DNA from: Escherichia phage cardinal
DNA length: 64,000 nt
Sequence record: PQ567651.1
Strand: one strand, 5' to 3'
Program-made: the position numbers and the translations under genes
Shown here: positions 2 through 41,526 of the stretch, piece after piece
Layout: every line of letters begins with the position of its first letter
How positions within the stretch are numbered: position 1 is the stretch's first letter
The notes under the pieces: generated by a model
What the model was told of the DNA's origin: nothing
Seen by the model: only the letters and a program-made list of their open reading frames with translations
Database searches by the model: none

Positions 2-274
2 GAAGTTCAGGACAGTGAAAAAACTCGTTGCCTCACGACTGTGCCTAAAGACGTACTATTAGCTTACATTCCACCTGGAAGATATCTAGATGCCTTTGAA
101 AAATTAAGTGAAGGCGTACATTATAGAAAGTTAACGGTTAAAGAGTGTTGCCGCTTGCAAGGTGTGCCAGATGACTACTTTAAAGTGAGTAGTAACACAC
201 AAGCATATAAGATGTTAGGTAACGGTTGGACTATACCTGTCATTGCACATATTCTTAAATGTATGGAGGAATAG
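2..274 (+). CDS. DNA (cytosine-5) methyltransferase, C-terminal fragment (gene begins upstream of window)
   Basis: C-terminal C5-MTase pattern RKLTVKECCRLQGVPDDY ... MLGNGWTIPVIAHI; frame open to window edge. Confidence 0.7.
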   Translation, partial: EVQDSEKTRCLTTVPKDVLLAYIPPGRYLDAFEKLSEGVHYRKLTVKECCRLQGVPDDYFKVSSNTQAYKMLGNGWTIPVIAHILKCMEE

Positions 275-397
275 TGGAAACATTGTGGAAAGGCTGGAAG
301 ACTGCTCTGATAGCTTTTATAATTCCATTAACTTTTCTTGGTTGGTGTTTTTGGGAATTTATCTTTTGGTTAATTTCCCATATACATTGGGGGTAAT

Positions 398-1006
398 ATG
401 ACTCAAAAAGTTGCATATCAAGTAGATCGTGAAGATGGTGAAGGTAGTGTTGTAGTTTTTGATACACATGGTCTTGCAGCAAGACGCAAAGGCGCTTGTC
501 TACTGGACATTGGTGGTGAAGATGAATACTGCACTGTACGTAGAGTAAAAGAATTTGATCAATATGCTGAAAAAGGTTTTGTACCCGTGAAAGCACTATT
601 AGAAGCTGGATGGTGGATACCTAGTGCACATGATTATGATATTTTGGAAGATACAGATGAATTCAACAGTGAAGATTTTGTTTTTTCTCTGGATGAAAAA
701 TGCGTTTGGAAAAACTGGGATGAAATGGAACGCCATGCTTATTTTATAAACGAAGCATTAGATCGTAAAACTTGGTTTGAAAATACAGTTAAAGCAGCGT
801 ATCCTCAATTTACTTTTATACAGTTTTGGGGTGGCCCACATCATATTACTCATACAGCATATTTCGAGTTCCCAGGTTCACGTTATAAAGGTACTGTTTA
901 TTGGGATTGGGACGAGGACAAAGAACCTTCTGCTCAAGACTTCCGTTGCTATGTTTGTCAAGGTGATCAAGAAGCCCTTGACAAGTACCTTAAAAGTCTG
1001 GTATAA
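398..1006 (+). CDS. hypothetical protein
   Basis: 202-aa ORF, purine-rich stretch before ATG, followed by hairpin terminator. Confidence 0.5.
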   Translation: MTQKVAYQVDREDGEGSVVVFDTHGLAARRKGACLLDIGGEDEYCTVRRVKEFDQYAEKGFVPVKALLEAGWWIPSAHDYDILEDTDEFNSEDFVFSLDEKCVWKNWDEMERHAYFINEALDRKTWFENTVKAAYPQFTFIQFWGGPHHITHTAYFEFPGSRYKGTVYWDWDEDKEPSAQDFRCYVCQGDQEALDKYLKSLV

Positions 1007-1023
1007 TCCGTAAAACTTAACCA

Positions 1024-1050
1024 AAGCCCCCCAAGCAGGGGCTTTATTTG
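1024..1050 (+). terminator. rho-independent terminator
   Basis: aagcccc-ccaagca-ggggctt hairpin followed by tatttg. Confidence 0.5.
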
Positions 1051-1062
1051 TCTGGAGGATAT

Positions 1063-1617
1063 ATGGGTTTTGATGATATGTTATTATATGAGGAGGCTTG
1101 TGTGAAAGAAGCTATGGCTTTACCAGTTTTATCTATTGATATTACAACAGTAGACACTTTTTCAGATTGTGAAACGTGTGGATCGTATTCAAGTATTGTA
1201 CATGTGGTCTGTGGGGATTTAGGCACTTACGAAGATGGAGATTATGCAAGTTGTTTAGGTGATAATCAAGATGGTGAAGTGGCAAATGTTGCAAACTGGA
1301 TTGCTTCTAAGTTAAAAGAAAGAAATCGTCCGTTCCCTAATCTTCTTACACCAGAAGCTATGCTTAAAGCTGAACAAGAGATGTATGATTATGGTTATAA
1401 AGTAGATTATGACTATAATGATCCTAATTATAAAAAATTGAGTGACAAGTATTGGGAACTAGCTAACGCTTATGATAAATACTACTCTACAGAAAACATT
1501 GTTAAATTGTTTTTAGATTTTGGAGTAGAAATTAATTGGGATTTCGAAGAGGAAGAGCGTTACGACGCATCTTCTTGGGATGATGATTACGAAGAGGATA
1601 TTGAATGCGAAGAGTAA
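1063..1617 (+). CDS. acidic hypothetical protein
   Basis: ORF with GGAGG RBS before ATG at 1063; D/E-rich C-terminus. Confidence 0.5.
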   Translation: MGFDDMLLYEEACVKEAMALPVLSIDITTVDTFSDCETCGSYSSIVHVVCGDLGTYEDGDYASCLGDNQDGEVANVANWIASKLKERNRPFPNLLTPEAMLKAEQEMYDYGYKVDYDYNDPNYKKLSDKYWELANAYDKYYSTENIVKLFLDFGVEINWDFEEEERYDASSWDDDYEEDIECEE

Positions 1618-2417
1618 TTTTTGTTAGTGGCGCAGGACTATCTGTGGATAGCGGTATCCCAGCTTTTAGAACAGATACTTCTTCAGGGGAGGCGTTATGG
1701 TCTTCTTATGATCTTTCTGAGGTTTGTGACATTTTCAACTTCCGTGACGGTTATCAGCAAGAACAAGGTGTTCTTGATGCTATGGGTGGTTTAGATGCGG
1801 AAGGATATAACCTCTACCGTAAAACTCACGACTTTTACAATAAACGTCGCGTGGAATTAGAGAAAGTTGACCCGAATCCAGCACATCTTCAGATTGGAGA
1901 ATGGTTCAAAAAATATGGCCCAGAACGAATTATTAACATTACTACTAACGTGGATGACCTCCTTGAACGAGCAGGAGTAGATAGGGAAGAAGTGCTACAT
2001 GTGCACGGTTTTCTTCCTGAAATTACTTTTCAAAGAAAAGCCGGACAACCTACAATTGTAAAAGATGTTGGTTATCAAGCCATAGATGTAGATGACTACC
2101 ATTATGTAAAACCTAATGTAATTTTCTTTGGGGAAGCTGCTCCACTTTACACGGATATGTATTATATTTTTGATACACTGACGGCTCAAGATTTGGTTGT
2201 AGTAGTAGGATGTTCAAACCAAGTTATCAATTTTAATTGGGAATTATTCCCTGCACTTAATATGGGTACAAAAATGATCGTTGTTAACCCAGGAATTAAT
2301 TACGAAGAAACTCTTCTTTACGAAGATAGAGGAGTCTTTGTTTATCGAGAAAAGGCCGCAGATGCTTTTAGCAATCCTGCTTTCATAAAAATGATAGAAG
2401 ATCATTTGACTAAATAA
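1605..2417 (+). CDS. Sir2-family (sirtuin-like) NAD-binding protein lacking the zinc-ribbon module
   Basis: Motifs FVSGAGLSVDSGIPAFRTD (GAGxS..GIPxFR), ITTNVDDLL, VLHVHG, PNVIFFGE; no CxxC pairs. Confidence 0.7.
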   Translation: MRRVIFVSGAGLSVDSGIPAFRTDTSSGEALWSSYDLSEVCDIFNFRDGYQQEQGVLDAMGGLDAEGYNLYRKTHDFYNKRRVELEKVDPNPAHLQIGEWFKKYGPERIINITTNVDDLLERAGVDREEVLHVHGFLPEITFQRKAGQPTIVKDVGYQAIDVDDYHYVKPNVIFFGEAAPLYTDMYYIFDTLTAQDLVVVVGCSNQVINFNWELFPALNMGTKMIVVNPGINYEETLLYEDRGVFVYREKAADAFSNPAFIKMIEDHLTK

Positions 2418-2424
2418 CTTAACC

Positions 2425-2447
2425 AAGGGGCGAAAGCCCCTTTTCTT
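2425..2447 (+). terminator. rho-independent terminator
   Basis: aaggggc-gaaa-gcccctt hairpin plus T-rich tail. Confidence 0.5.
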
Positions 2448-2460
2448 ATAGGAGAATATT

Positions 2461-2718
2461 ATGACCACAGAACAAATCGTTAAAGACCATTTTATGATGC
2501 ACTACGTTTATTACTTCAATAATAATCAACAGAAAGGTGAGGGATTTTGTTATCTATCCGCACAACAAGGTTTTGGTATCCGTCAAGCAGATATTAACGG
2601 AGCAGTGGCTGGAATTACAAAAGGCTTGGTTGCAAACCTTAAAGACAATGTTGTTGTTGTCCCAACGTGCATCTCTTACCTCTCAACCTGCCCTGAAGAA
2701 GATTTTATGCATTCCTAA
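2461..2718 (+). CDS. hypothetical protein
   Basis: 85-aa ORF with AGGAGA RBS. Confidence 0.45.
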   Translation: MTTEQIVKDHFMMHYVYYFNNNQQKGEGFCYLSAQQGFGIRQADINGAVAGITKGLVANLKDNVVVVPTCISYLSTCPEEDFMHS

Positions 2719-2785
2719 AACCTCCTGTAACGAATTCTAACGCACTTTTTATTTTAGTAATACGTTTCCCTATCCAATGCAAACA

Positions 2786-2820
2786 AAAGCCCCTAGAATC
2801 GCTTCTAGGGGCTTTATTTT
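2786..2820 (+). terminator. rho-independent terminator
   Basis: aaagcccctagaa-tcgc-ttctaggggcttt hairpin followed by atttt. Confidence 0.55.
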
Positions 2821-2893
2821 AGTCTTCTGTAAAATATCCTATGACAACAATGATAAAGATGATTAACACTACGATACTCTCTAGTAAAGTCAT

Positions 2894-3115
2894 CTATAAA
2901 TCTCGTTCATATAGTTCAATTATCAATTCATCCTCTGCTGTTATCGTACCAATTTGCCAAGTGTGAAGATAAACCTCTGTGTAAGAGTGTATCTTACTAT
3001 CTAACAAGCACAACCACGTATTGTTGCTTACCTTTTCTTGAATATGAACCTTAACCACGAAAGGGTGAGGGTTATCTACTAAGAAACCAATACTACCTTC
3101 TACAACTACAGACAT
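2894..3115 (-). CDS. hypothetical protein
   Basis: ORF with AGGAGG RBS on minus strand. Confidence 0.5.
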   Translation of the reverse strand: MSVVVEGSIGFLVDNPHPFVVKVHIQEKVSNNTWLCLLDSKIHSYTEVYLHTWQIGTITAEDELIIELYERDL

Positions 3116-3169
3116 AATACCTCCTATTATTTATGCTAAGAAAATACTTATAACAAATAAAGAACACAC

Positions 3170-3197
3170 ATACAAGAAAACCCGCCGAAGCGGGTTT
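3170..3197 (-). terminator. hairpin terminator (bidirectional-looking)
   Basis: aaacccgc-cgaa-gcgggttt hairpin with T-run on minus strand after gene 3203-3526. Confidence 0.45.
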
Positions 3198-3202
3198 ATG
3201 TG

Positions 3203-3526
3203 TTATACAATGTGTTTTGTTTTAACGTGCGAAGATTTAAAAATCTTATTATGTAATGAAATACGATTATCACGGAACACATAATAGTTAACAACATCTG
3301 GTTTATCAACACAGAGTGTAGCCACAACTTTCATAGGTATAGATACATTCTCACGAAGAGTAACACTACCTTTCAAACGTTCAGATGAAATGTGAATCAA
3401 ACCTTCTTTTTCATCAATGATAACTTCTTTAACATTTTTGAAATTATAACAAGAGTTGTCAACATAAGATACCCTTGCTTTTGTTTGCTTCTGTTTAGGA
3501 CGAGAACCAGTGTTTATTTTTTGCAT
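3203..3526 (-). CDS. hypothetical protein
   Basis: 107-aa ORF in co-directional block. Confidence 0.5.
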   Translation of the reverse strand: MQKINTGSRPKQKQTKARVSYVDNSCYNFKNVKEVIIDEKEGLIHISSERLKGSVTLRENVSIPMKVVATLCVDKPDVVNYYVFRDNRISLHNKIFKSSHVKTKHIV

Positions 3527-3534
3527 AGTTTTCC

Positions 3535-3822
3535 TTATTTGCTTTCACGAGCAAAATAATAATTTTCATATTCATTACGTGTAACGATTTCTGGATGATC
3601 AGGTTCACCGTAACTAAGTTTAATTTCAGGATACACTTTGGTGTTGAATAGACACGTAACACCTCTCATATAATATCCTGTAGGACTTAAAACAACATCA
3701 TCTTCACTTACACTTGAGAATTTTATTTCACCATTAGTATCTTTGACGACAATAAGAGCATGTTCAGGCCAATCAAGATTCTCTTCTTTCAGTTTTTCAT
3801 AAACTTCTTGCACTAGTTCCAT
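3535..3822 (-). CDS. hypothetical protein
   Basis: 95-aa ORF, GAGGAGG RBS immediately upstream. Confidence 0.55.
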   Translation of the reverse strand: MELVQEVYEKLKEENLDWPEHALIVVKDTNGEIKFSSVSEDDVVLSPTGYYMRGVTCLFNTKVYPEIKLSYGEPDHPEIVTRNEYENYYFARESK

Positions 3823-3831
3823 ATTGCCTCC

Positions 3832-4005
3832 TCAGATTACAAATTTTTCTTCTTCTGGTTTCTCGTAGTTGGGAGAATAAACGTGGGATGGATTAAAACC
3901 TTTAAAGCTACCCCGCCCTTTTCGTGGACAATTGAATGTTTTAGCTTTGTGATCACCAAAAGATTTACCACAATGTACACATTTATAATTGGTATCTTTG
4001 AACAT
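3832..4005 (-). CDS. small Cys-rich (zinc-ribbon-like) protein, 57 aa
   Basis: MFKDTNYKCVHCGKSFGDHKAKTFNCPRKG..., strong AGGAG RBS; below the 60-aa track cutoff; replaces GTG-start track ORF 3837-4034. Confidence 0.5.
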   Translation of the reverse strand: MFKDTNYKCVHCGKSFGDHKAKTFNCPRKGRGSFKGFNPSHVYSPNYEKPEEEKFVI

Positions 4006-4160
4006 TTTACTCTCCTTTGAAAGATAGGCTGCACAGCAGTACAGCCTTTTAAAAATTAGTGTTTAAATTTTTCGATTACTTCGTCAACTTTAGCGATGAT
4101 AACATCTTGGTACTTGTGACCAAAATAACCAACAACAACACCAACAATAAACGTCATCAT

Positions 4161-4760
4161 TTACTTCTCCTTTTTAACTATAATTGCTTCTTCATTCAGG
4201 GTAAACAGCAAGGAAGATGTATCACCAACACACCTTGCACCTGGAATGAGTTCTAAAATCTTAGAGGATATAGCAATAGTATCTTCATCCAGTACATATT
4301 CTCCAGGTAACAATCTTAATGTTATTGGAAAATCTACGGATGCCAAACCAGAGAACATCCCATCATTAAGAAGAACAACTTCTAAACCGTTGCCTTCTTG
4401 TTGTGCATTATGCACTTTTTCAGGTAAGAAGTCAATACATTGATTTAAAATTTCCACATTTAATTCTACGCCAGTCCGAGCTTTATAAACTCTAGCCAAA
4501 TCTATGATCCGAGGATCAATACTGGCGTAAGGAGATTCTAGGTGTTTTGGGTCAATAGGAGCAACGCGCAATTTACCATCGAGAGATATCCACGTTACAA
4601 TCCACATTTCACCAACCCCAGGTTGATCTCGCTCAGTAAGGAATTCTACTAATGCTCCAGGGTTAGGCATTATGTAATCTTGTGTGATCAACATGTTCTT
4701 TACTCGCAAAAGCATTCCTGGCTTTAGTAAGCCCCTCTCACCACTCCAATATTCTTTCAT
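4161..4760 (-). CDS. hypothetical protein
   Basis: ORF; start moved to internal ATG (MKEYWSGE) with AGGAG RBS to avoid overlap. Confidence 0.5.
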   Translation of the reverse strand: MKEYWSGERGLLKPGMLLRVKNMLITQDYIMPNPGALVEFLTERDQPGVGEMWIVTWISLDGKLRVAPIDPKHLESPYASIDPRIIDLARVYKARTGVELNVEILNQCIDFLPEKVHNAQQEGNGLEVVLLNDGMFSGLASVDFPITLRLLPGEYVLDEDTIAISSKILELIPGARCVGDTSSLLFTLNEEAIIVKKEK

Positions 4761-4773
4761 TTTTACTCCTGAT

Positions 4774-5046
4774 TTAATGTCGTAGTTCACTAAACTTACA
4801 AACAAAGTGAACGTTAAGAAAAGTTAGTTTTCGATCTGGTGTAAACTCTGTTACTGTTTTATACACCTGTGCAATACCGAACCTGTTGATAGCAGGTACT
4901 GACAATTGGCTTATACATTTCATAGCTGACAGTTTTGCCTCTTCTTCAGATGCAAAATAAGTAAAGATACCTTCTTCGTCAACTATAATTTCTTGTGTAA
5001 CACAATCTACAAAACAAAAGAAAACATTAGGTAATTTTTCCGACAT
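4774..5046 (-). CDS. hypothetical protein
   Basis: 90-aa ORF with RBS. Confidence 0.5.
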   Translation of the reverse strand: MSEKLPNVFFCFVDCVTQEIIVDEEGIFTYFASEEEAKLSAMKCISQLSVPAINRFGIAQVYKTVTEFTPDRKLTFLNVHFVCKFSELRH

Positions 5047-5047
5047 A

Positions 5048-5260
5048 TTAGTTGTTCCTGTACTTAGAGAACAAAGTATTGACTAACCAGTCAGCAAACA
5101 GTAATCCAAGTGTACCAATACCGTAACCGATAAGCATAATGTAAGGCACTGCCTTATTTTCATTACCTGTCATTACTTCAGGAAAAATCAAAAACACAAT
5201 ACCGTTACCAACGATAATCCAGAACATAAGAAACACAAACATACGAAGCAACATTGTCAT
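5048..5260 (-). CDS. small hydrophobic (membrane) protein
   Basis: 70 aa, two hydrophobic segments. Confidence 0.5.
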   Translation of the reverse strand: MTMLLRMFVFLMFWIIVGNGIVFLIFPEVMTGNENKAVPYIMLIGYGIGTLGLLFADWLVNTLFSKYRNN

Positions 5261-37473: not shown

Positions 37474-40248
37474 ATGGCTAAGAAAGAGTTGAGCTTCACT
37501 CCGACAGAAGAGCAAACAGCTATTAAGGAGGCTTTTCCAGATCATCGCTTTTTAACTATCCAAGCTAAATCTGGATCAGGTAAAACGTCAACACTTTATT
37601 TGCTGGCTAACAGTACAGAAGATCGCATTCTTTACTTAGCTTTCAATAAAAGCATGGCAGAAGAAGCACGACGTAAGATGCCACCAAATGTAGAATGCCG
37701 TACATTGCATTCTATTTGCTATCAATTCCTGGATCATCGTTTACGTGCAAAACTGTCACGACCAGAAGGACAGTATGTTAACGTTGCAGGTACAGGTAGC
37801 GAGATAGCAAAGAAATTTAAGATTAATAATCTTATTGATAAACGAGGGAAAACACTTTTAACTCGTGCTATGATTGGTTTAATGATCAAGCAAACCGTAG
37901 GTAAGTTTGAATTTTCGGATGATCCTTTTATCAGCCGTAAACATTTTCCTAGTGTACATCTTGCAGATATTAAAAGAAAAGGTATTAACGAACACAAACT
38001 AATTACAGAAGTAGTTAAGTATGCAAAACAATTGTGGCGAGAGCGCATCGATCCTAACACAGATACTTTGATGACGCATGACACCTATGTAAAATTGTTT
38101 GAATTGTCTGGTGCTGATCTTGGTTATGACATTATTTTTGGGGATGAATTCCAGGATGTTAACCCTGCATTCTTGTCTATTCTGCGAAATGCTAAATCTG
38201 CAAAACAAATTGTGGTAGTTGGCGATGAATTCCAATGTGTGTCGGAAAACACGGTACTTAACACCGAGAATGGTCAGGTTACAATGAAAGACCTGCAAAT
38301 CGGTGATAAGGTAGAGTCTTATTCTAATGGTAAAGTTACATTTAGAAAAGTAACAAATAAGACTTTATCTACACGTACAAAAGGTAGGAATATTATTACT
38401 GCTACAGGTAAAACTTTAGATATGACACATAACCATCGTATTTGGGCTTCATCCTATGTTCTGAAAGATGACCAGATGGTGGTATACCTAATGTGGAGGA
38501 AAGATTTAGGTTTCCGAGTAGGGATCACTAACAAATTCGATGATAAAGAAGGTTTTTCTAAACTGGGGCAACGTACACGTTCTGAAAAAGCACAGAAATT
38601 ATGGGTGTTGGACATTGTTGAAAATCGCGAAGCTGCTATGGAAAAAGAAATGGCATACAGTTTACAATATGGCATTCCTACTTGTGTATTTGAAGCAAGT
38701 TCACGCGGCATTAATCAAGAAAGGATCAATAACATCTTTGAACAATTCGGACAAAATGGTTTTAAACTTTTAGAGGATAAAGATTATCATTTTGCTTATC
38801 CACACTGGCACAGCATCAATTGTGCAGTAGATGAAAGAAAAATGCTAACAGTGACTTTGCGAGCACAAAGTTGTAAAGGAACACAAGTTAGTTTTGAGTG
38901 GACAGAAAGTGAAATGCCGATCTATTCTTCACTGATTAAAGCAGGTGTAAGCGTAAGTGCTGCTAAATTGGAAGGTCGTTACCGTGTACGTAAATATTTC
39001 AATTCTTATCGTGAAGCATTGAGTTTTGCACAAAAGATCCTTGAAATAGTTCCGTTTGCATCTTTAAAAGAATGCATGTCCTCTGTGAACAGTGCCAAAT
39101 ATAACTTAATTCCGGCAGCGGGTTTGTTTAAAGGCATGTCTGTGTTGGTAAAAGATGGTGATACTGTAACGGCAGAAGAGATTGTGGATATTGTAGATAG
39201 TGAGGGTATCTATTATGATATTGAAGTAGAGGATACTGCTAACTTCTTTGGCAATGAAATTCTTAGCCACAACTGCATTTATCAATTTAGAGGTAGCTCT
39301 AATATGATGATTGAAACAGCTAAGTATGGGGCAGAACTTCCATTAACTGCTTGCTTCCGTTTTGGCCCCAAAGTGGCAAACATTGCCAATATGATTTTAA
39401 GCGATAAAGAACCTTTGCGTCATCCTTTGGTTGGTAAAGGCTTTGATACTGTAGTAGGTAGCTACAAATCAGATGTTGTAGACTATACAAAACCTTACAC
39501 TATCATCTTTCGCAAGAATTTAACCTTGCTTATGGAGGCAATGGATCGTATTGCAGATGGGGAAGAAATTATTATTAACGTAGATACCAGGGATTTTATC
39601 TCTATGGTAGATAGTGTTAATGCTCTTCGGAGAGGAGATATTGAGAAAGTAAAACATGAAACTGTATTACCTTACGCAGACTGGGATGAATTTGTTGAGT
39701 GTGCAGAGGCTGATCCAGATGCTAAACGCTTGTTAAACATCGTAGTTTCTGGTAAGGCGAACACCATAGCACATACACTTAGAACGCACAGAAATTCTCC
39801 TACAGCAAAAGTCACACTTACTACAGCACACAAGTCTAAAGGTTTGGAGTGGGATCAGGTTATTGTTGCTAATGATTTTCCTTCCAACTATGATAAAAAG
39901 ACTGGTGAATGGGTAGGACTAGAAGAGGCAGAGCGAAACCTACTGTATGTAGCGCATACCCGTTGTGTTAAATGCTTACAATGGAACACAACCGTACAGG
40001 AGATTATAGATATCAATCGTGTTGCAACAGAGAAAGTACCAACAAGCACCACTTTACCGATCAATGGTATTAAACTTGGTGTATTTGGCGCTGGCACATC
40101 TCGAAAAACTGTAGAAAAATTTGTTGCAGATTCTTTTGATGGTAACTATAATCATGCACAAGCATATGAGAGTTGGTTAGAGGAAGGTGAAGGTGATTTT
40201 TTAGGTGAAATAAATCTTTTACCAGACATAAATAAACTGGTAAACTAA
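37474..40248 (+). CDS. SF1 (UvrD/PcrA-like) DNA helicase containing an intein
   Basis: Walker A AKSGSGKTSTL, motif II FGDEFQD, motif III VVVGDEFQ|CIYQFRG split by 346-aa insert; AAGAGAGG RBS. Confidence 0.8.
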   Translation: MAKKELSFTPTEEQTAIKEAFPDHRFLTIQAKSGSGKTSTLYLLANSTEDRILYLAFNKSMAEEARRKMPPNVECRTLHSICYQFLDHRLRAKLSRPEGQYVNVAGTGSEIAKKFKINNLIDKRGKTLLTRAMIGLMIKQTVGKFEFSDDPFISRKHFPSVHLADIKRKGINEHKLITEVVKYAKQLWRERIDPNTDTLMTHDTYVKLFELSGADLGYDIIFGDEFQDVNPAFLSILRNAKSAKQIVVVGDEFQCVSENTVLNTENGQVTMKDLQIGDKVESYSNGKVTFRKVTNKTLSTRTKGRNIITATGKTLDMTHNHRIWASSYVLKDDQMVVYLMWRKDLGFRVGITNKFDDKEGFSKLGQRTRSEKAQKLWVLDIVENREAAMEKEMAYSLQYGIPTCVFEASSRGINQERINNIFEQFGQNGFKLLEDKDYHFAYPHWHSINCAVDERKMLTVTLRAQSCKGTQVSFEWTESEMPIYSSLIKAGVSVSAAKLEGRYRVRKYFNSYREALSFAQKILEIVPFASLKECMSSVNSAKYNLIPAAGLFKGMSVLVKDGDTVTAEEIVDIVDSEGIYYDIEVEDTANFFGNEILSHNCIYQFRGSSNMMIETAKYGAELPLTACFRFGPKVANIANMILSDKEPLRHPLVGKGFDTVVGSYKSDVVDYTKPYTIIFRKNLTLLMEAMDRIADGEEIIINVDTRDFISMVDSVNALRRGDIEKVKHETVLPYADWDEFVECAEADPDAKRLLNIVVSGKANTIAHTLRTHRNSPTAKVTLTTAHKSKGLEWDQVIVANDFPSNYDKKTGEWVGLEEAERNLLYVAHTRCVKCLQWNTTVQEIIDINRVATEKVPTSTTLPINGIKLGVFGAGTSRKTVEKFVADSFDGNYNHAQAYESWLEEGEGDFLGEINLLPDINKLVN
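38236..39273 (+). mobile_element. intein (346 aa) in helicase motif III
   Basis: N-terminal CVSENTVLNT (block A), TLDMTHNHRIW (block B), C-terminal YYDIEVEDTANFFGNEILSHN then +1 Cys. Confidence 0.75.
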
Positions 40249-40258
40249 GGGGGTTAAA

Positions 40259-40510
40259 GTGGCAGGGTATCATTTGAAGGAGATTAGCAAAGAGGAATAT
40301 GGTTCTATTGCTAAGATTCAAGAAGAGCTTTATGAACTTCAAGATGCTATTGATCAAGATTGCAAGCTGATGCAACTTATTGAGTTATCAGATATTGTAG
40401 GCGCTGTTGAAGGTGTTCTTGAACAACATTTTCCTGATATGACGCTTCAAGATTTGATCACTATGTCAAACATTACTAAACGTGCATTCCGCAATGGAGG
40501 TCGATCATGA
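40259..40510 (+). CDS. hypothetical protein
   Basis: 83-aa ORF, GTG start with AAGGGGG RBS. Confidence 0.45.
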   Translation: MAGYHLKEISKEEYGSIAKIQEELYELQDAIDQDCKLMQLIELSDIVGAVEGVLEQHFPDMTLQDLITMSNITKRAFRNGGRS

Positions 40511-41079
40511 ATGTTGCAGTAATAGCTCAAGCTGTTGATTACTATGGTCGGTTTGCACAAATGTTGGAAGTTCCATATCTCGTGGATGCTGATATACTGG
40601 CGTACACACTACCAGAAAATAAAGAGGATCGCCCATTAGGGCATCCTAACGGTAAATACTATGTAGCTAGTGCAGAACAATCTTTCCTGCAAATGGAGAA
40701 GGATGGTTTTGAATTTGCAGCAGGAAATCCTTACATGGCACTAACACCATGTTACCGTACAGAAGAAAATTTAGATGATACTCATTTTAATATTTTCTTG
40801 AAATTGGAGTTGATTGAGTTCTACCCTGATGCTACAATTGAAGAGTATGCTAACTCTATGCGCTGTTTCTTCTCTACTTATTATGGAGTTAAAACATATT
40901 TAGTACCCACTAATATTGGGGTTGACGTAGAGGATGAATATGGTTTAGAATTAGGTTCATTCGGTATAAGGGAGTCTCCAAAAGGTCATCCTTATATCTA
41001 TGCAACAGGTATTGCGGAGCCTAGGGCTTCACTGGCAATAAACCGTGTTGTAAATAAGATTCAAAGCATTAGCAAATAA
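40507..41079 (+). CDS. hypothetical protein
   Basis: 190-aa ORF. Confidence 0.5.
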   Translation: MNVAVIAQAVDYYGRFAQMLEVPYLVDADILAYTLPENKEDRPLGHPNGKYYVASAEQSFLQMEKDGFEFAAGNPYMALTPCYRTEENLDDTHFNIFLKLELIEFYPDATIEEYANSMRCFFSTYYGVKTYLVPTNIGVDVEDEYGLELGSFGIRESPKGHPYIYATGIAEPRASLAINRVVNKIQSISK

Positions 41080-41091
41080 GAGGAGAATAGA

Positions 41092-41526
41092 ATGTCTATT
41101 GTGACACAAATGAAAGCAGATCGTATCTTAGCACGTACAACCGATAAGGGTGCTTTTGCTTTGTTAACTAATATTATTGGTGAGTTTGACCTTGCTCGTA
41201 CTCAAAAGGCAAATCTGAATAAATCAGAAGATGATATTATGATTAACATTGTTAAGATTGGTATTGCACACGCTAAAGAGGAACTAGACTCGCTTAAGAA
41301 AGTTAATGCCTCCATTAGCAAATGTGAGCGAGCTATGCGTGATATCACCACTCTGGAGAAATATTTACCAGAAATGCTATCTGAAGATGATCTTCGAGCT
41401 ATTGCCGAAGAATTTGCCTTGACAGGCAAGAAAATGCCAGATATGATGAAACACCTTAAAGCAGAGTATCCGAATCAATATGATGGAAAACTTGCTTCTA
41501 CCATTGCAAAAGAAATTTTAAACTAA
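41092..41526 (+). CDS. GatB/YqeY-domain protein
   Basis: LSEDDLRAIAEEFALTGKKMPDMMKHLKAEY resembles YqeY C-terminal pattern. Confidence 0.5.
   Translation: MSIVTQMKADRILARTTDKGAFALLTNIIGEFDLARTQKANLNKSEDDIMINIVKIGIAHAKEELDSLKKVNASISKCERAMRDITTLEKYLPEMLSEDDLRAIAEEFALTGKKMPDMMKHLKAEYPNQYDGKLASTIAKEILN

What the first reader, a model, noticed from the sequence alone, without database searches (positions are those of the whole stretch)
38236..39273. Intein (346 aa) inserted in helicase motif III of an SF1 helicase
The helicase reads VVVGDEFQ then CVSENTVLNT... and 346 residues later ...GNEILSHN then CIYQFRGSSN. Removing the insert restores a canonical UvrD-type motif III (GDEFQ-CIYQFRG). The insert has intein block A (Cys1), a TxxH block B and a C-terminal HN followed by +1 Cys. 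Its size suggests an embedded endonuclease domain.
Basis: seen in the sequence. Interest (0 to 1): 0.7.

Follow-up and report, generated by a model that had tools for sequence, protein, structure and literature searches.

The report
Known intein in phage UvrD helicase
The 346-residue insert is a genuine, apparently mobile intein that splits motif III of a phi92-like coliphage UvrD-type helicase. It is already annotated as an intein in sister phages; the only unexplored part is its conserved middle domain, which matches no recognised homing-endonuclease family.

Summary
Confirmed. Window 38236-39273 encodes a 346-aa class-1 intein (Cys1, T64-x-x-H67, His345-Asn346, +1 Cys) inside motif III (GDEFQ|CIYQFRG) of a UvrD/Rep-type helicase (CDS 37474-40248) of a Justusliebigvirus (phi92-like) coliphage.

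- About 20 records of the same genus carry an uninterrupted helicase gene; the two read in detail are exactly 1038 bp shorter.
- Mobility is supported by a roughly 95-bp divergent tract around the insertion site (p = 7e-23). The intein is also much less diverged than its host gene between E. coli and Klebsiella phages.

It is not new. The same element (98-100% identical) is annotated as an intein in GenBank (MZ501100, MZ501084, PQ110661). The same site is occupied in Bacillus phages SPO1 and CampHawk and in at least 120 bacterial genomes.

The parts
37474..40248 (+). Intein-containing UvrD/Rep-type (SF1) helicase precursor CDS, 924 aa plus stop
   Evidence: ORF; start as annotated in orthologue bas60_0082; Pfam UvrD-helicase/UvrD_C/AAA_19; PHROG 1967 DNA helicase, E = 2.6e-162.
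37474..38235 (+). N-extein (254 aa): Walker A (GSGKT), motif II (FGDEFQD) and the first half of motif III (VVVGDEFQ)
   Evidence: Translation; collinear with intein-free helicases of phages alia and Paula.
38236..39273 (+). Intein, 346 aa, class 1 (Cys1 ... His345-Asn346)
   Evidence: The indel is exactly 1038 bp relative to NC_052655 and LR865361.
38236..38451 (+). Hint N-terminal lobe (aa 1-72) with block A (Cys1) and block B (T64-x-x-H67)
38467..38685 (+). Central core (aa 78-150), beta-beta-alpha-beta-alpha, motif VYLMxR..G[FY]RVG..R...E..W.L..EA...E..SLxYGIP. This is the candidate nuclease catalytic module (Y84, R94, R113, E117, E138).
38686..38820 (+). Helical linker (aa 151-195) with conserved FxxFGxNGxxLL, a helix-hairpin-helix-like motif on my reading, and the PHW motif
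   Evidence: The helix-hairpin-helix resemblance is inference from the motif only.
38821..39096 (+). Subdomain 2 (aa 196-287), beta-beta-alpha-beta-alpha-beta, basic (pI 9.1). It is absent from the short SPO1 and S. suis forms. It is hypervariable between phage lineages (nt 38914-39094) and is a candidate DNA-recognition module.
39097..39273 (+). Hint C-terminal lobe (aa 288-346) with block F (YYDIEVED) and block G (ILSHN)
   Evidence: dN/dS 0.015.
39274..40248 (+). C-extein (324 aa plus stop). It starts with the +1 Cys nucleophile (39274-39276), then the second half of motif III (IYQFRG) and the UvrD_C domain.
38206..38235 (+). 5' part of the divergent flanking tract, interpreted as a co-conversion or target-site tract
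   Evidence: Mismatch clustering against intein-free alleles.
39274..39338 (+). 3' part of the divergent flanking tract. 13 of the 17 differences here are derived on the intein-bearing allele relative to the outgroup.

Best explanation
Window 38236-39273 is a bifunctional class-1 intein in the UvrD-type helicase gene of a phi92-like (Justusliebigvirus) coliphage. The gene is translated as a 924-aa precursor in which helicase motif III is split. The Hint domain is formed by intein residues 1-72 and 288-346. It then excises itself in four steps: (1) an N-S acyl shift at Cys1, assisted by T64/H67; (2) transfer of the N-extein to the +1 Cys; (3) cyclisation of Asn346, assisted by His345; (4) an S-N shift that joins Gln254 to Cys. 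The products are a 578-aa helicase with an intact motif III (GDEFQCIYQFRG) and a free 346-aa intein. This chemistry is inferred from the presence of all catalytic residues and the fold; splicing was not observed here. The element is, or recently was, mobile by homing between co-infecting phages. Its central domain of about 215 aa (residues 73-287) most likely supplies the site-specific nuclease that cuts intein-less helicase alleles at the motif III coding sequence. Repair from the intein-bearing allele then copies the intein together with about 30-65 bp of flanking sequence. The mobility footprint is shown here. That the central domain is the nuclease is inferred (my estimate about 0.65). That it is a divergent GIY-YIG-type fold is only a hypothesis (about 0.35).
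For: Intein identity:
- Cys1, T64xxH67, H345-N346 and +1 Cys are present.
- Pfam Hint and Intein_splicing, and TIGR01443, match.
- The catalytic residues are 91-100% conserved in 89 homologous inteins.
- Excision restores a 578-aa protein 98% identical to intein-free orthologues.
- GenBank records MZ501100, MZ501084 and PQ110661 annotate it as an intein.

Mobility:
- There are 36 intein-bearing and 20 uninterrupted alleles among Justusliebigvirus records, including both states under the species name 'alia'. No uninterrupted allele carries the intein-type junction sequence.
- 27/95 mismatches lie within -30..+65 of the site against 23/1642 elsewhere (Fisher p = 7.5e-23). Of these, 17 are derived on the intein-bearing side relative to a Phapecoctavirus outgroup.
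- Against Klebsiella phage KP2025 the intein is 89% nt identical (third codon positions 80%), while the exteins are 74-79% (third positions 45-52%).
- Against KP13-16 the intein is 61% aa identical and the exteins 44%.

Central domain is functional:
- 1772 clusters match at E <= 1e-3 and 1417 at E <= 1e-10.
- Invariant polar residues are Y84, R94, R113 and E138.
- dN/dS is 0.03 in the core.
- Homologues lacking Cys1 and the terminal His-Asn sit as separate genes immediately next to uninterrupted UvrD-like helicase genes in 3 of 3 contigs examined. This arrangement is typical of free-standing homing endonucleases.
- No alternative-frame or antisense endonuclease ORF lies inside the intein.
Against: - No splicing or cleavage experiment exists for this element.
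- The central domain has no significant match to any nuclease family by sequence: Pfam GIY-YIG matched 1 of 24 members at E = 3.1, there was no PDB sequence hit, and hhalign against an I-TevI-type alignment gave P = 0.015-0.024.
- The second Tyr and the Asn of the canonical GIY-YIG active site are not conserved.
- The divergent flanking tract could partly reflect target-site escape in the intein-free alleles rather than co-conversion: 7 of the 27 changes are derived on the intein-free side.
- The perfect association between tract type and intein state means no demonstrably cleavable empty site was found in this genus.
Confidence: 0.88

Rival explanations
1. It is a splicing-competent intein, but the central domain is not a nuclease. 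It would be a DNA-binding, regulatory or structural insert, or a decayed remnant. The intein would then spread only passively by ordinary recombination, or with the help of nucleases encoded elsewhere.
Against: - The core is under very strong purifying selection (dN/dS 0.03), and polar residues are invariant across more than 1400 clusters. A decaying remnant would not show this.
- The intein is far less diverged than its host gene across phage genera.
- Flanking tracts are sharp and look like co-conversion.
- Free-standing copies sit next to uninterrupted UvrD genes.
These are all signatures of an active homing element.
Confidence: 0.25
2. The 346-aa segment is a native insertion domain of this helicase lineage that stays in the mature protein and is not excised.
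For: None specific. Pfam Intein_splicing and TIGR01445 scores fall just below their curated cut-offs.
Confidence: 0.02
3. It is a fixed, domesticated intein whose splicing acts as a conditional (redox or stress) switch for helicase activity. On this view it is maintained for regulation rather than by homing, as proposed for ATPase-domain inteins.
For: Both nucleophiles are Cys (Cys1 and Cys+1) where the native +1 residue is Ser. The insertion lies in a catalytic ATPase motif, the pattern stressed by Novikova et al. 2016 (PMC4760082).
Against: The intein is polymorphic, not fixed, within a single genus and even under one species name. Intein-free phages are viable isolates. The horizontal-transfer signal shows mobility. 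Regulation could coexist with homing but is not needed to explain the data.
Confidence: 0.1

Closest known systems
The same intein in sister Justusliebigvirus phages, e.g. Escherichia phage PaulScherrer (Bas60) bas60_0082, 'intein-containing UvrD / Rep family helicase precursor' (MZ501100.1); also MZ501084.1 and PQ110661.1; unannotated in phi92 gp198 (NC_023693)
   Same: 98-100% aa identity, same gene, same insertion site, same length.
   Different: The GenBank mat_peptide is drawn one codon longer (347 aa, including the +1 Cys). Comparison with intein-free alleles shows that the 346-aa boundary is the correct one. No publication in the searched library describes or tests it, and a 2024 paper even states that no coliphage inteins are reported (PMC11162368).
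UvrD-helicase intein of Bacillus phages SPO1 (gp34.33) and CampHawk
   Same: Same insertion point in motif III (LVGDDDQ|C...THN|SMYSFRGA). The central core is homologous (YLM..FRVG..R..W.L..E; about 30% identity over about 110 aa) (PMC3868849).
   Different: The Bacillus-phage inteins are 275-285 aa, lack subdomain 2 (window intein aa about 196-287) and have +1 Ser.
Bacterial UvrD inteins (16 listed by Novikova et al. 2016, PMC4760082)
   Same: The phyla overlap: Deinococcus-Thermus, Actinobacteria, Acidobacteria, Firmicutes, Proteobacteria. My scan found the core motif in at least 120 bacterial genomes, with 119 of 122 hits at UvrD motif III.
   Different: I could not verify that the 16 published cases use the same insertion site or domain, because the supplementary tables are not held.
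Canonical bifunctional inteins with LAGLIDADG endonucleases (PI-SceI, PI-PfuI, TliVMA)
   Different: Only about 130-160 residues (the Hint part) align. The inserted domain shows no LAGLIDADG motif, Pfam hit or structural match.
GIY-YIG homing endonucleases and nucleases (I-TevI, UvrC N-terminal domain, Slx1)
   Different: No statistically significant sequence or profile similarity. The second Tyr is usually Phe, the Asn is missing, and one of the two helices between strands 2 and 3 is absent. GIY-YIG enzymes were stated (as of 2006) not to occur in inteins (PMC1564403).

Membership tests
Intein (Hint superfamily, class 1) | Hint (hedgehog/intein) fold | tested here: met
Intein (Hint superfamily, class 1) | N-terminal nucleophile (Cys/Ser1) and block B TxxH | tested here: met
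   Cys1, T64-H-N-H67. C1 and H67 are 100% conserved in 89 homologues.
Intein (Hint superfamily, class 1) | C-terminal His-Asn followed by a +1 Cys/Ser/Thr | tested here: met
   H345-N346 | Cys. TIGR01443 intein_Cterm 20.0-23.3 bits >= 15.6. N346 100% and H345 91% conserved.
Intein (Hint superfamily, class 1) | In-frame insertion at a conserved site of a host protein, with intein-less orthologues that are otherwise collinear | tested here: met
   The indel is exactly 1038 bp relative to NC_052655 and LR865361. The spliced product is 569-570/578 identical. About 20 uninterrupted alleles occur in the genus.
Intein (Hint superfamily, class 1) | Protein splicing actually occurs | not testable with these tools
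   Inferred only. All catalytic residues are intact and 36 viable phage isolates carry the element in a helicase whose motif III would otherwise be disrupted.
UvrD/Rep (SF1A) helicase (host protein) | Motifs I (GxGKT), II (DExQD), III (GDxxQ[S]IYxFRG) and the UvrD_C domain | tested here: met
   GSGKT, FGDEFQD and GDEFQ|CIYQFRG are visible in the translation. Pfam PF00580 45.6 bits, PF13361 42 bits, PF13245 39.7 bits, all above cut-off.
LAGLIDADG homing endonuclease | One or two LAGLIDADG helices; alpha-beta-beta-alpha-beta-beta-alpha fold | tested here: not met
HNH homing endonuclease | beta-beta-alpha-metal motif with conserved His-Asn-His | tested here: not met
GIY-YIG nuclease superfamily | A domain of about 100 aa with GIY and YIG motifs in two N-terminal strands (definition in PMC1564403) | tested here: inconclusive
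   VYL (Y84 99%) and G[FY]RVG (G96 100%) lie in strands 81-88 and 92-98, 9-12 residues apart. The motifs are degenerate. Pfam PF01541 matched 1 of 24 members at E = 3.1.
GIY-YIG nuclease superfamily | A central Arg and a C-terminal catalytic Glu | tested here: inconclusive
   R113 (98%) lies in helix 1 with E117 four residues later. E138 (97%) lies in the helix after strand 3 and is aligned to I-TevI E75 by hhalign, but at P = 0.015-0.024 only.
GIY-YIG nuclease superfamily | Three-stranded sheet flanked by helices (the GIY-YIG fold) recognisable by structure comparison | tested here: inconclusive
Homing endonuclease (functional class) | Site-specific cleavage of the element-free allele | not testable with these tools
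   Only footprints are available: a flanking divergent tract, the intein younger than the extein, and free-standing copies beside target genes.

The most novel reading that the evidence does not exclude
The conserved central domain of this intein (window aa about 73-287; signature VYLMxR-G[FY]RVG-R...E-W.L-EA...E-SLxYGIP) is an unrecognised family of homing endonucleases. It is possibly a minimal, highly divergent GIY-YIG-type nuclease fused to a variable DNA-recognition subdomain. It is specialised on UvrD-type helicase genes and exists both intein-embedded (in phages and in at least 120 bacterial genomes) and as free-standing genes next to uninterrupted helicase genes. If it is GIY-YIG-derived, it would be the first GIY-YIG-type nuclease found inside inteins, a combination the literature I could search describes as absent.
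Probability: 0.35. Interest if true: 0.65.

Novelty: already known. Interest (0 to 1): 0.35.

Why it matters
As an intein, it adds little. The element is already annotated in sister phage genomes, and the same helicase site is known to be occupied in SPO1-like phages and in bacteria.

Its value is as a tractable E. coli phage model with natural intein-bearing and intein-free partners, both available in the BASEL collection: PaulScherrer and JohannJBalmer carry it, EmilieFrey lacks it. With these, intein homing could be studied in phage crosses. They would also allow biochemical definition of a widespread intein-embedded domain (more than 1400 clusters at 50% identity) that current databases leave unnamed.

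If that domain proves to be a nuclease of a new or GIY-YIG-like type, the catalogue of intein-associated homing endonucleases would grow beyond LAGLIDADG, HNH, Vsr-like and EndoVII-like. It would also supply a new site-specific enzyme scaffold.

Tried and rejected
- **Family scans of the central domain.** Pfam, NCBIfam, PHROG and PADLOC gave nothing. The only hit was phrog_25003 (unknown function, E = 0.0015).
- **Search of PDB sequences.** Both a single sequence and a 24-sequence profile gave no relevant hit.
- **Word-indexed protein search.** It found only 2-4 relatives. The exhaustive representative search was needed to reveal the family.
- **Structure prediction.** The first AlphaFold run with 7 sequences was poor (pLDDT 64.5). 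A 64-sequence alignment fixed it.
- **Foldseek.** Searches against PDB and BFVD were saturated by Hint matches and said nothing about the central domain, beyond showing that only 3 BFVD proteins share it. The afdb50 library was unavailable.
- **hhalign.** Comparing the central core with an 11-sequence I-TevI-type GIY-YIG alignment built from phage records gave only a local beta3-alpha2 match at P about 0.02. Homology is therefore not established.
- **GIY-YIG genes in the window.** I looked for them to use as comparators and found none.
- **A second intein in the window.** None found.
- **Endonuclease in another frame or on the antisense strand, as in some actinophage inteins.** The three small ORFs inside or overlapping the intein have no Pfam match.
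- **The search for related loci.** A degenerate DNA pattern was used instead.
- **Native insertion domain or assembly artefact.** Rejected because of the Hint fold, the conserved termini and the element's presence in 36 independent genomes.
Full report
**What is in the sequence**

The window is part of a Justusliebigvirus (phi92-like, Stephanstirmvirinae) coliphage genome. The helicase region is 97.5-99% identical to phages VEcB, muut, arall, phi92 and about 30 others. The ORF ending at 40248 corresponds to the helicase annotated in these phages, whose start maps to window 37474; that ATG is preceded by GAGAGG.

Translating 38236-39273 gives 346 residues, CVSENTVLNT...GNEILSHN.

The host protein is a UvrD/Rep-type SF1 helicase: Pfam PF00580, PF13361 and PF13245 all score above their cut-offs, and PHROG 1967 'DNA helicase' matches at E = 2.6e-162. 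Motif II (FGDEFQD) lies 25 residues upstream, so the split motif is indeed motif III.

**Is it an intein?**

Yes, on every feature that can be tested in silico.

- The splicing residues are all present: Cys1, T64-x-x-H67, H345-N346 and +1 Cys.
- Pfam Hint reaches its gathering score, and TIGR01443 (intein C-terminal region) exceeds its cut-off. Intein_splicing and TIGR01445 fall just short because the two Hint halves are separated by a large insert.
- An AlphaFold model built on a 64-sequence alignment is confident (pLDDT 94.5, pTM 0.90).
- In 89 cleanly delimited homologous inteins, C1, H67 and N346 are invariant and H345 is 91% conserved.

**Intein-free alleles**

Within the same genus, about 20 records carry an uninterrupted helicase gene. 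Phages alia (NC_052655) and Paula (LR865361) are exactly 1038 bp shorter. They read VVVGDEYQ-S-IYQFRGS, and the window's helicase with 38236-39273 removed is 569-570/578 identical to them.

This fixes the intein at 346 aa. The GenBank mat_peptide in MZ501100 is one codon too long because it includes the +1 Cys. It also shows that the native +1 residue is Ser; the Cys travels with the intein.

**Evidence that the element moves**

1. *Patchy distribution.* There are 36 records with the interrupted allele and 20 with the uninterrupted one. Records named 'alia' appear in both classes (NC_052655 without the intein; OZ035770 and OZ035799 with it).
2. *A sharply bounded divergent tract around the insertion site.* 27 of 95 positions differ from -30 to +65, against 23 of 1642 elsewhere in the gene (Fisher p = 7.5e-23). 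13 of the 20 changed codons are synonymous. Polarised with the Phapecoctavirus tuntematon helicase, 17 changes are derived on the intein-bearing allele, 7 on the intein-free allele and 3 are ambiguous. On the 3' side the split is 13 to 3. The simplest reading is flanking sequence imported with the intein (co-conversion), perhaps combined with some target-site drift in empty alleles. No uninterrupted allele with the intein-type junction exists in the phage collection, so neither a precise loss nor a matching empty site was seen.
3. *The intein is younger than its host gene.* Against Klebsiella phage KP2025, the intein is 89% identical at the nucleotide level (third positions 80%; most 90-nt windows 91-99%). 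The exteins are 74-79% identical (third positions 45-52%). Against Klebsiella phage KP13-16, the intein is 61% aa identical and the exteins 44%.
4. *A mosaic segment.* Nucleotides 38914-39094 are only 57-78% identical to KP2025. This segment falls in the second central subdomain and points to mosaicism or rapid change there.

**The embedded domain**

Between the Hint lobes lie about 215 residues that fold confidently into three parts:

- a beta-beta-alpha-beta-alpha core (aa 78-150);
- two helices carrying a conserved FxxFGxNGxxLL motif (aa 151-195);
- a beta-beta-alpha-beta-alpha-beta subdomain (aa 196-287), which is basic (pI 9.1).

It is not a LAGLIDADG or HNH domain. There are no Pfam hits at E <= 10 in 24 diverse members, and no PDB sequence match. 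LAGLIDADG-bearing inteins superpose only on the Hint part. No endonuclease is encoded in another frame or on the opposite strand.

The domain is nevertheless widespread:

- A profile search of 1.84 billion cluster representatives finds 1772 clusters at E <= 1e-3 and 1417 at E <= 1e-10.
- Almost all of the top 150 are UvrD-like helicases interrupted at the same motif III position, (V/I)GDxxQ|C...HN|(S/C)IYxFRGA. A minority are interrupted at other UvrD sites: after or inside motif II, in the P-loop, or at a C-terminal site.
- Shorter versions lacking subdomain 2 occupy the same site in Bacillus phages SPO1 and CampHawk. Another occupies an adenine methyltransferase of Streptococcus suis prophages.
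- A degenerate DNA pattern for the core motif hits at least 120 bacterial genomes (Chloroflexota, Acidimicrobiia, Deinococcales, cyanobacteria, Patescibacteria and others). 119 of 122 hits are at UvrD motif III.

The core is under strong purifying selection, with dN/dS 0.03 against KP2025. The residues invariant across all forms are Y84, M86, R94, G96, R113, W123, E138, G146 and L179.

**Is the embedded domain the homing nuclease?**

This is likely but unproven. Besides the mobility footprints, three short homologues that could be looked up are informative: P0006, P0003 and P0002. They retain Hint remnants but lack Cys1 and the terminal His-Asn. Each is encoded as a separate gene directly beside a UvrD-like helicase gene in a phage-like contig:

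- P0006 starts 1 nt after the helicase stop codon.
- P0003 overlaps the helicase stop codon.
- P0002 lies 66 nt upstream of the helicase gene.

Motif III is uninterrupted in the two helicases whose motif III region is on the contig: GDSRQSLYLF next to P0006 and GDSYQAIYGF next to P0002. Only the C-terminal end of the helicase beside P0003 is on its short contig. This is the classic arrangement of free-standing homing endonucleases next to their target gene.

**What fold is it?**

The core topology and the pattern Tyr (strand 1), aromatic-x-x-Gly (strand 2), Arg-x3-Glu (helix 1) and Glu (helix after strand 3) recall the GIY-YIG superfamily as defined by Dunin-Horkawicz et al. (PMC1564403).

- The query could not be trimmed to the domain.
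- hhalign against an I-TevI-type alignment matches only strand 3 and the following helix (E138 to E75) at P = 0.015-0.024.
- The canonical second Tyr and the Asn are not conserved.

I therefore treat 'divergent GIY-YIG-like nuclease' as a hypothesis at about 0.35.

**Comparison with what is known**

The element itself is already public and annotated:

- 'intein-containing UvrD / Rep family helicase precursor' with an intein mat_peptide in BASEL phages PaulScherrer and JohannJBalmer, and 'intein-containing UvrD' in vB_EcoM_ZYD;
- the BASEL paper notes that inteins were delimited by comparative annotation (PMC8594841);
- the SPO1 and CampHawk UvrD inteins at the same site are annotated and published;
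- UvrD is among the top intein hosts in bacteria (PMC4760082).

In the searched literature I found no description or test of this coliphage intein, no paper using the phrase 'UvrD intein', and no report of a GIY-YIG-type domain in an intein. A 2024 paper even says no coliphage inteins are reported (PMC11162368). A 2025 survey lists LAGLIDADG, HNH, Vsr-like and EndoVII-like as the intein-associated endonuclease types.

**Verdict**

The observation and the interpretation are both correct. The feature is an ordinary, already annotated class-1 intein, with good comparative evidence of recent horizontal spread. The residual interest lies in its unclassified but very widespread central domain, and in the availability of natural intein-bearing and intein-free coliphage pairs for experiments.

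Noticed in passing
L006 (Klebsiella phage KP13-16, OP617741.1) CDS 527-4123: The orthologous helicase carries two inteins. Besides the motif III intein (61% identical to the window's), a 337-aa insert splits the Walker A loop (AGTGK|AQPLTA...VTHN|TSTL). It begins with Ala rather than Cys or Ser and contains LAGLIDADG-like motifs (LGVLIGDGYL, LLRGLMDTDGS), so it may be a class 2 or 3 intein. The record annotates the 1198-aa protein only as hypothetical.
   Followed up: partly
L140 4001-4885, L141 510-1418, L142 4001-4798 (metagenomic phage-like contigs): Free-standing ORFs of 265-302 aa are homologous to the whole intein (Hint remnants plus central domain) but lack Cys1 and the terminal His-Asn. 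Each lies immediately next to a UvrD-like helicase gene. Motif III is uninterrupted in L140 and L142; L141 holds only the helicase's C-terminal end. In L142 the helicase has Ala at the +1 position (GDSYQAIYGF), which could not support splicing. They look like intein-derived free-standing homing genes.
   Followed up: partly
window 38914-39094 (intein aa about 227-287): This segment is hypervariable. It is 57-78% nt identical to Klebsiella phage KP2025, while the rest of the intein is 91-99% identical. Local dS is 0.95, against 0.11-0.18 in the neighbouring parts. This suggests recombinational mosaicism or rapid evolution of a putative DNA-recognition subdomain.
   Followed up: partly
L008 (uncultured 485-kb phage LR745208.1) ORF 26-5116: A related intein (35% identity, same central domain) sits after motif II (DEAQDLNK|C...SHN|CQH) of a 1696-aa UvrD-like protein, not in motif III. 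It has an extra insertion of about 58 aa in the Hint C-lobe. The representative search shows further sites: inside motif II (VDE|C...|CQDLN), the P-loop, and ANRLIAHN|C...|SKQIPM.
   Followed up: partly
Phage-collection records MG065639, MG065645, MG065656, MG065689: Four records labelled 'Campylobacter phage' (host Campylobacter jejuni) are 98.5% identical to this E. coli phi92-like helicase and intein. They are probably coliphage contaminants or mislabelled hosts. OZ035771 'Phapecoctavirus DIJ07P2' likewise carries the Justusliebigvirus-type intein-bearing allele.
   Followed up: no
L001 3802-4842 (MZ501100.1 bas60_0082 mat_peptide): The deposited intein boundaries include the +1 Cys codon (347 aa). 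The mature helicase as annotated would then lack the residue that intein-free orthologues have as Ser. The 346-aa boundary is the consistent one.
   Followed up: yes
window 40507-41526: Downstream of the helicase lie two small genes. Sister-phage records name them inconsistently: tRNA synthetase, seryl- or histidyl-tRNA synthetase fragment, and YqeY-like or tRNA amidotransferase. At 190 and 144 aa they are far too short for full synthetases. Their function is unclear.
   Followed up: no
L007 (Streptococcus phage Javan599) CDS 1361-3472: The S. suis prophage 'adenine-specific methyltransferase' contains an unannotated 285-aa intein of the short type (QWQHEP|CQPAGT...VTHN|CLYGWK). One record calls the same protein a 'ParB-like nuclease'.
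   Followed up: no
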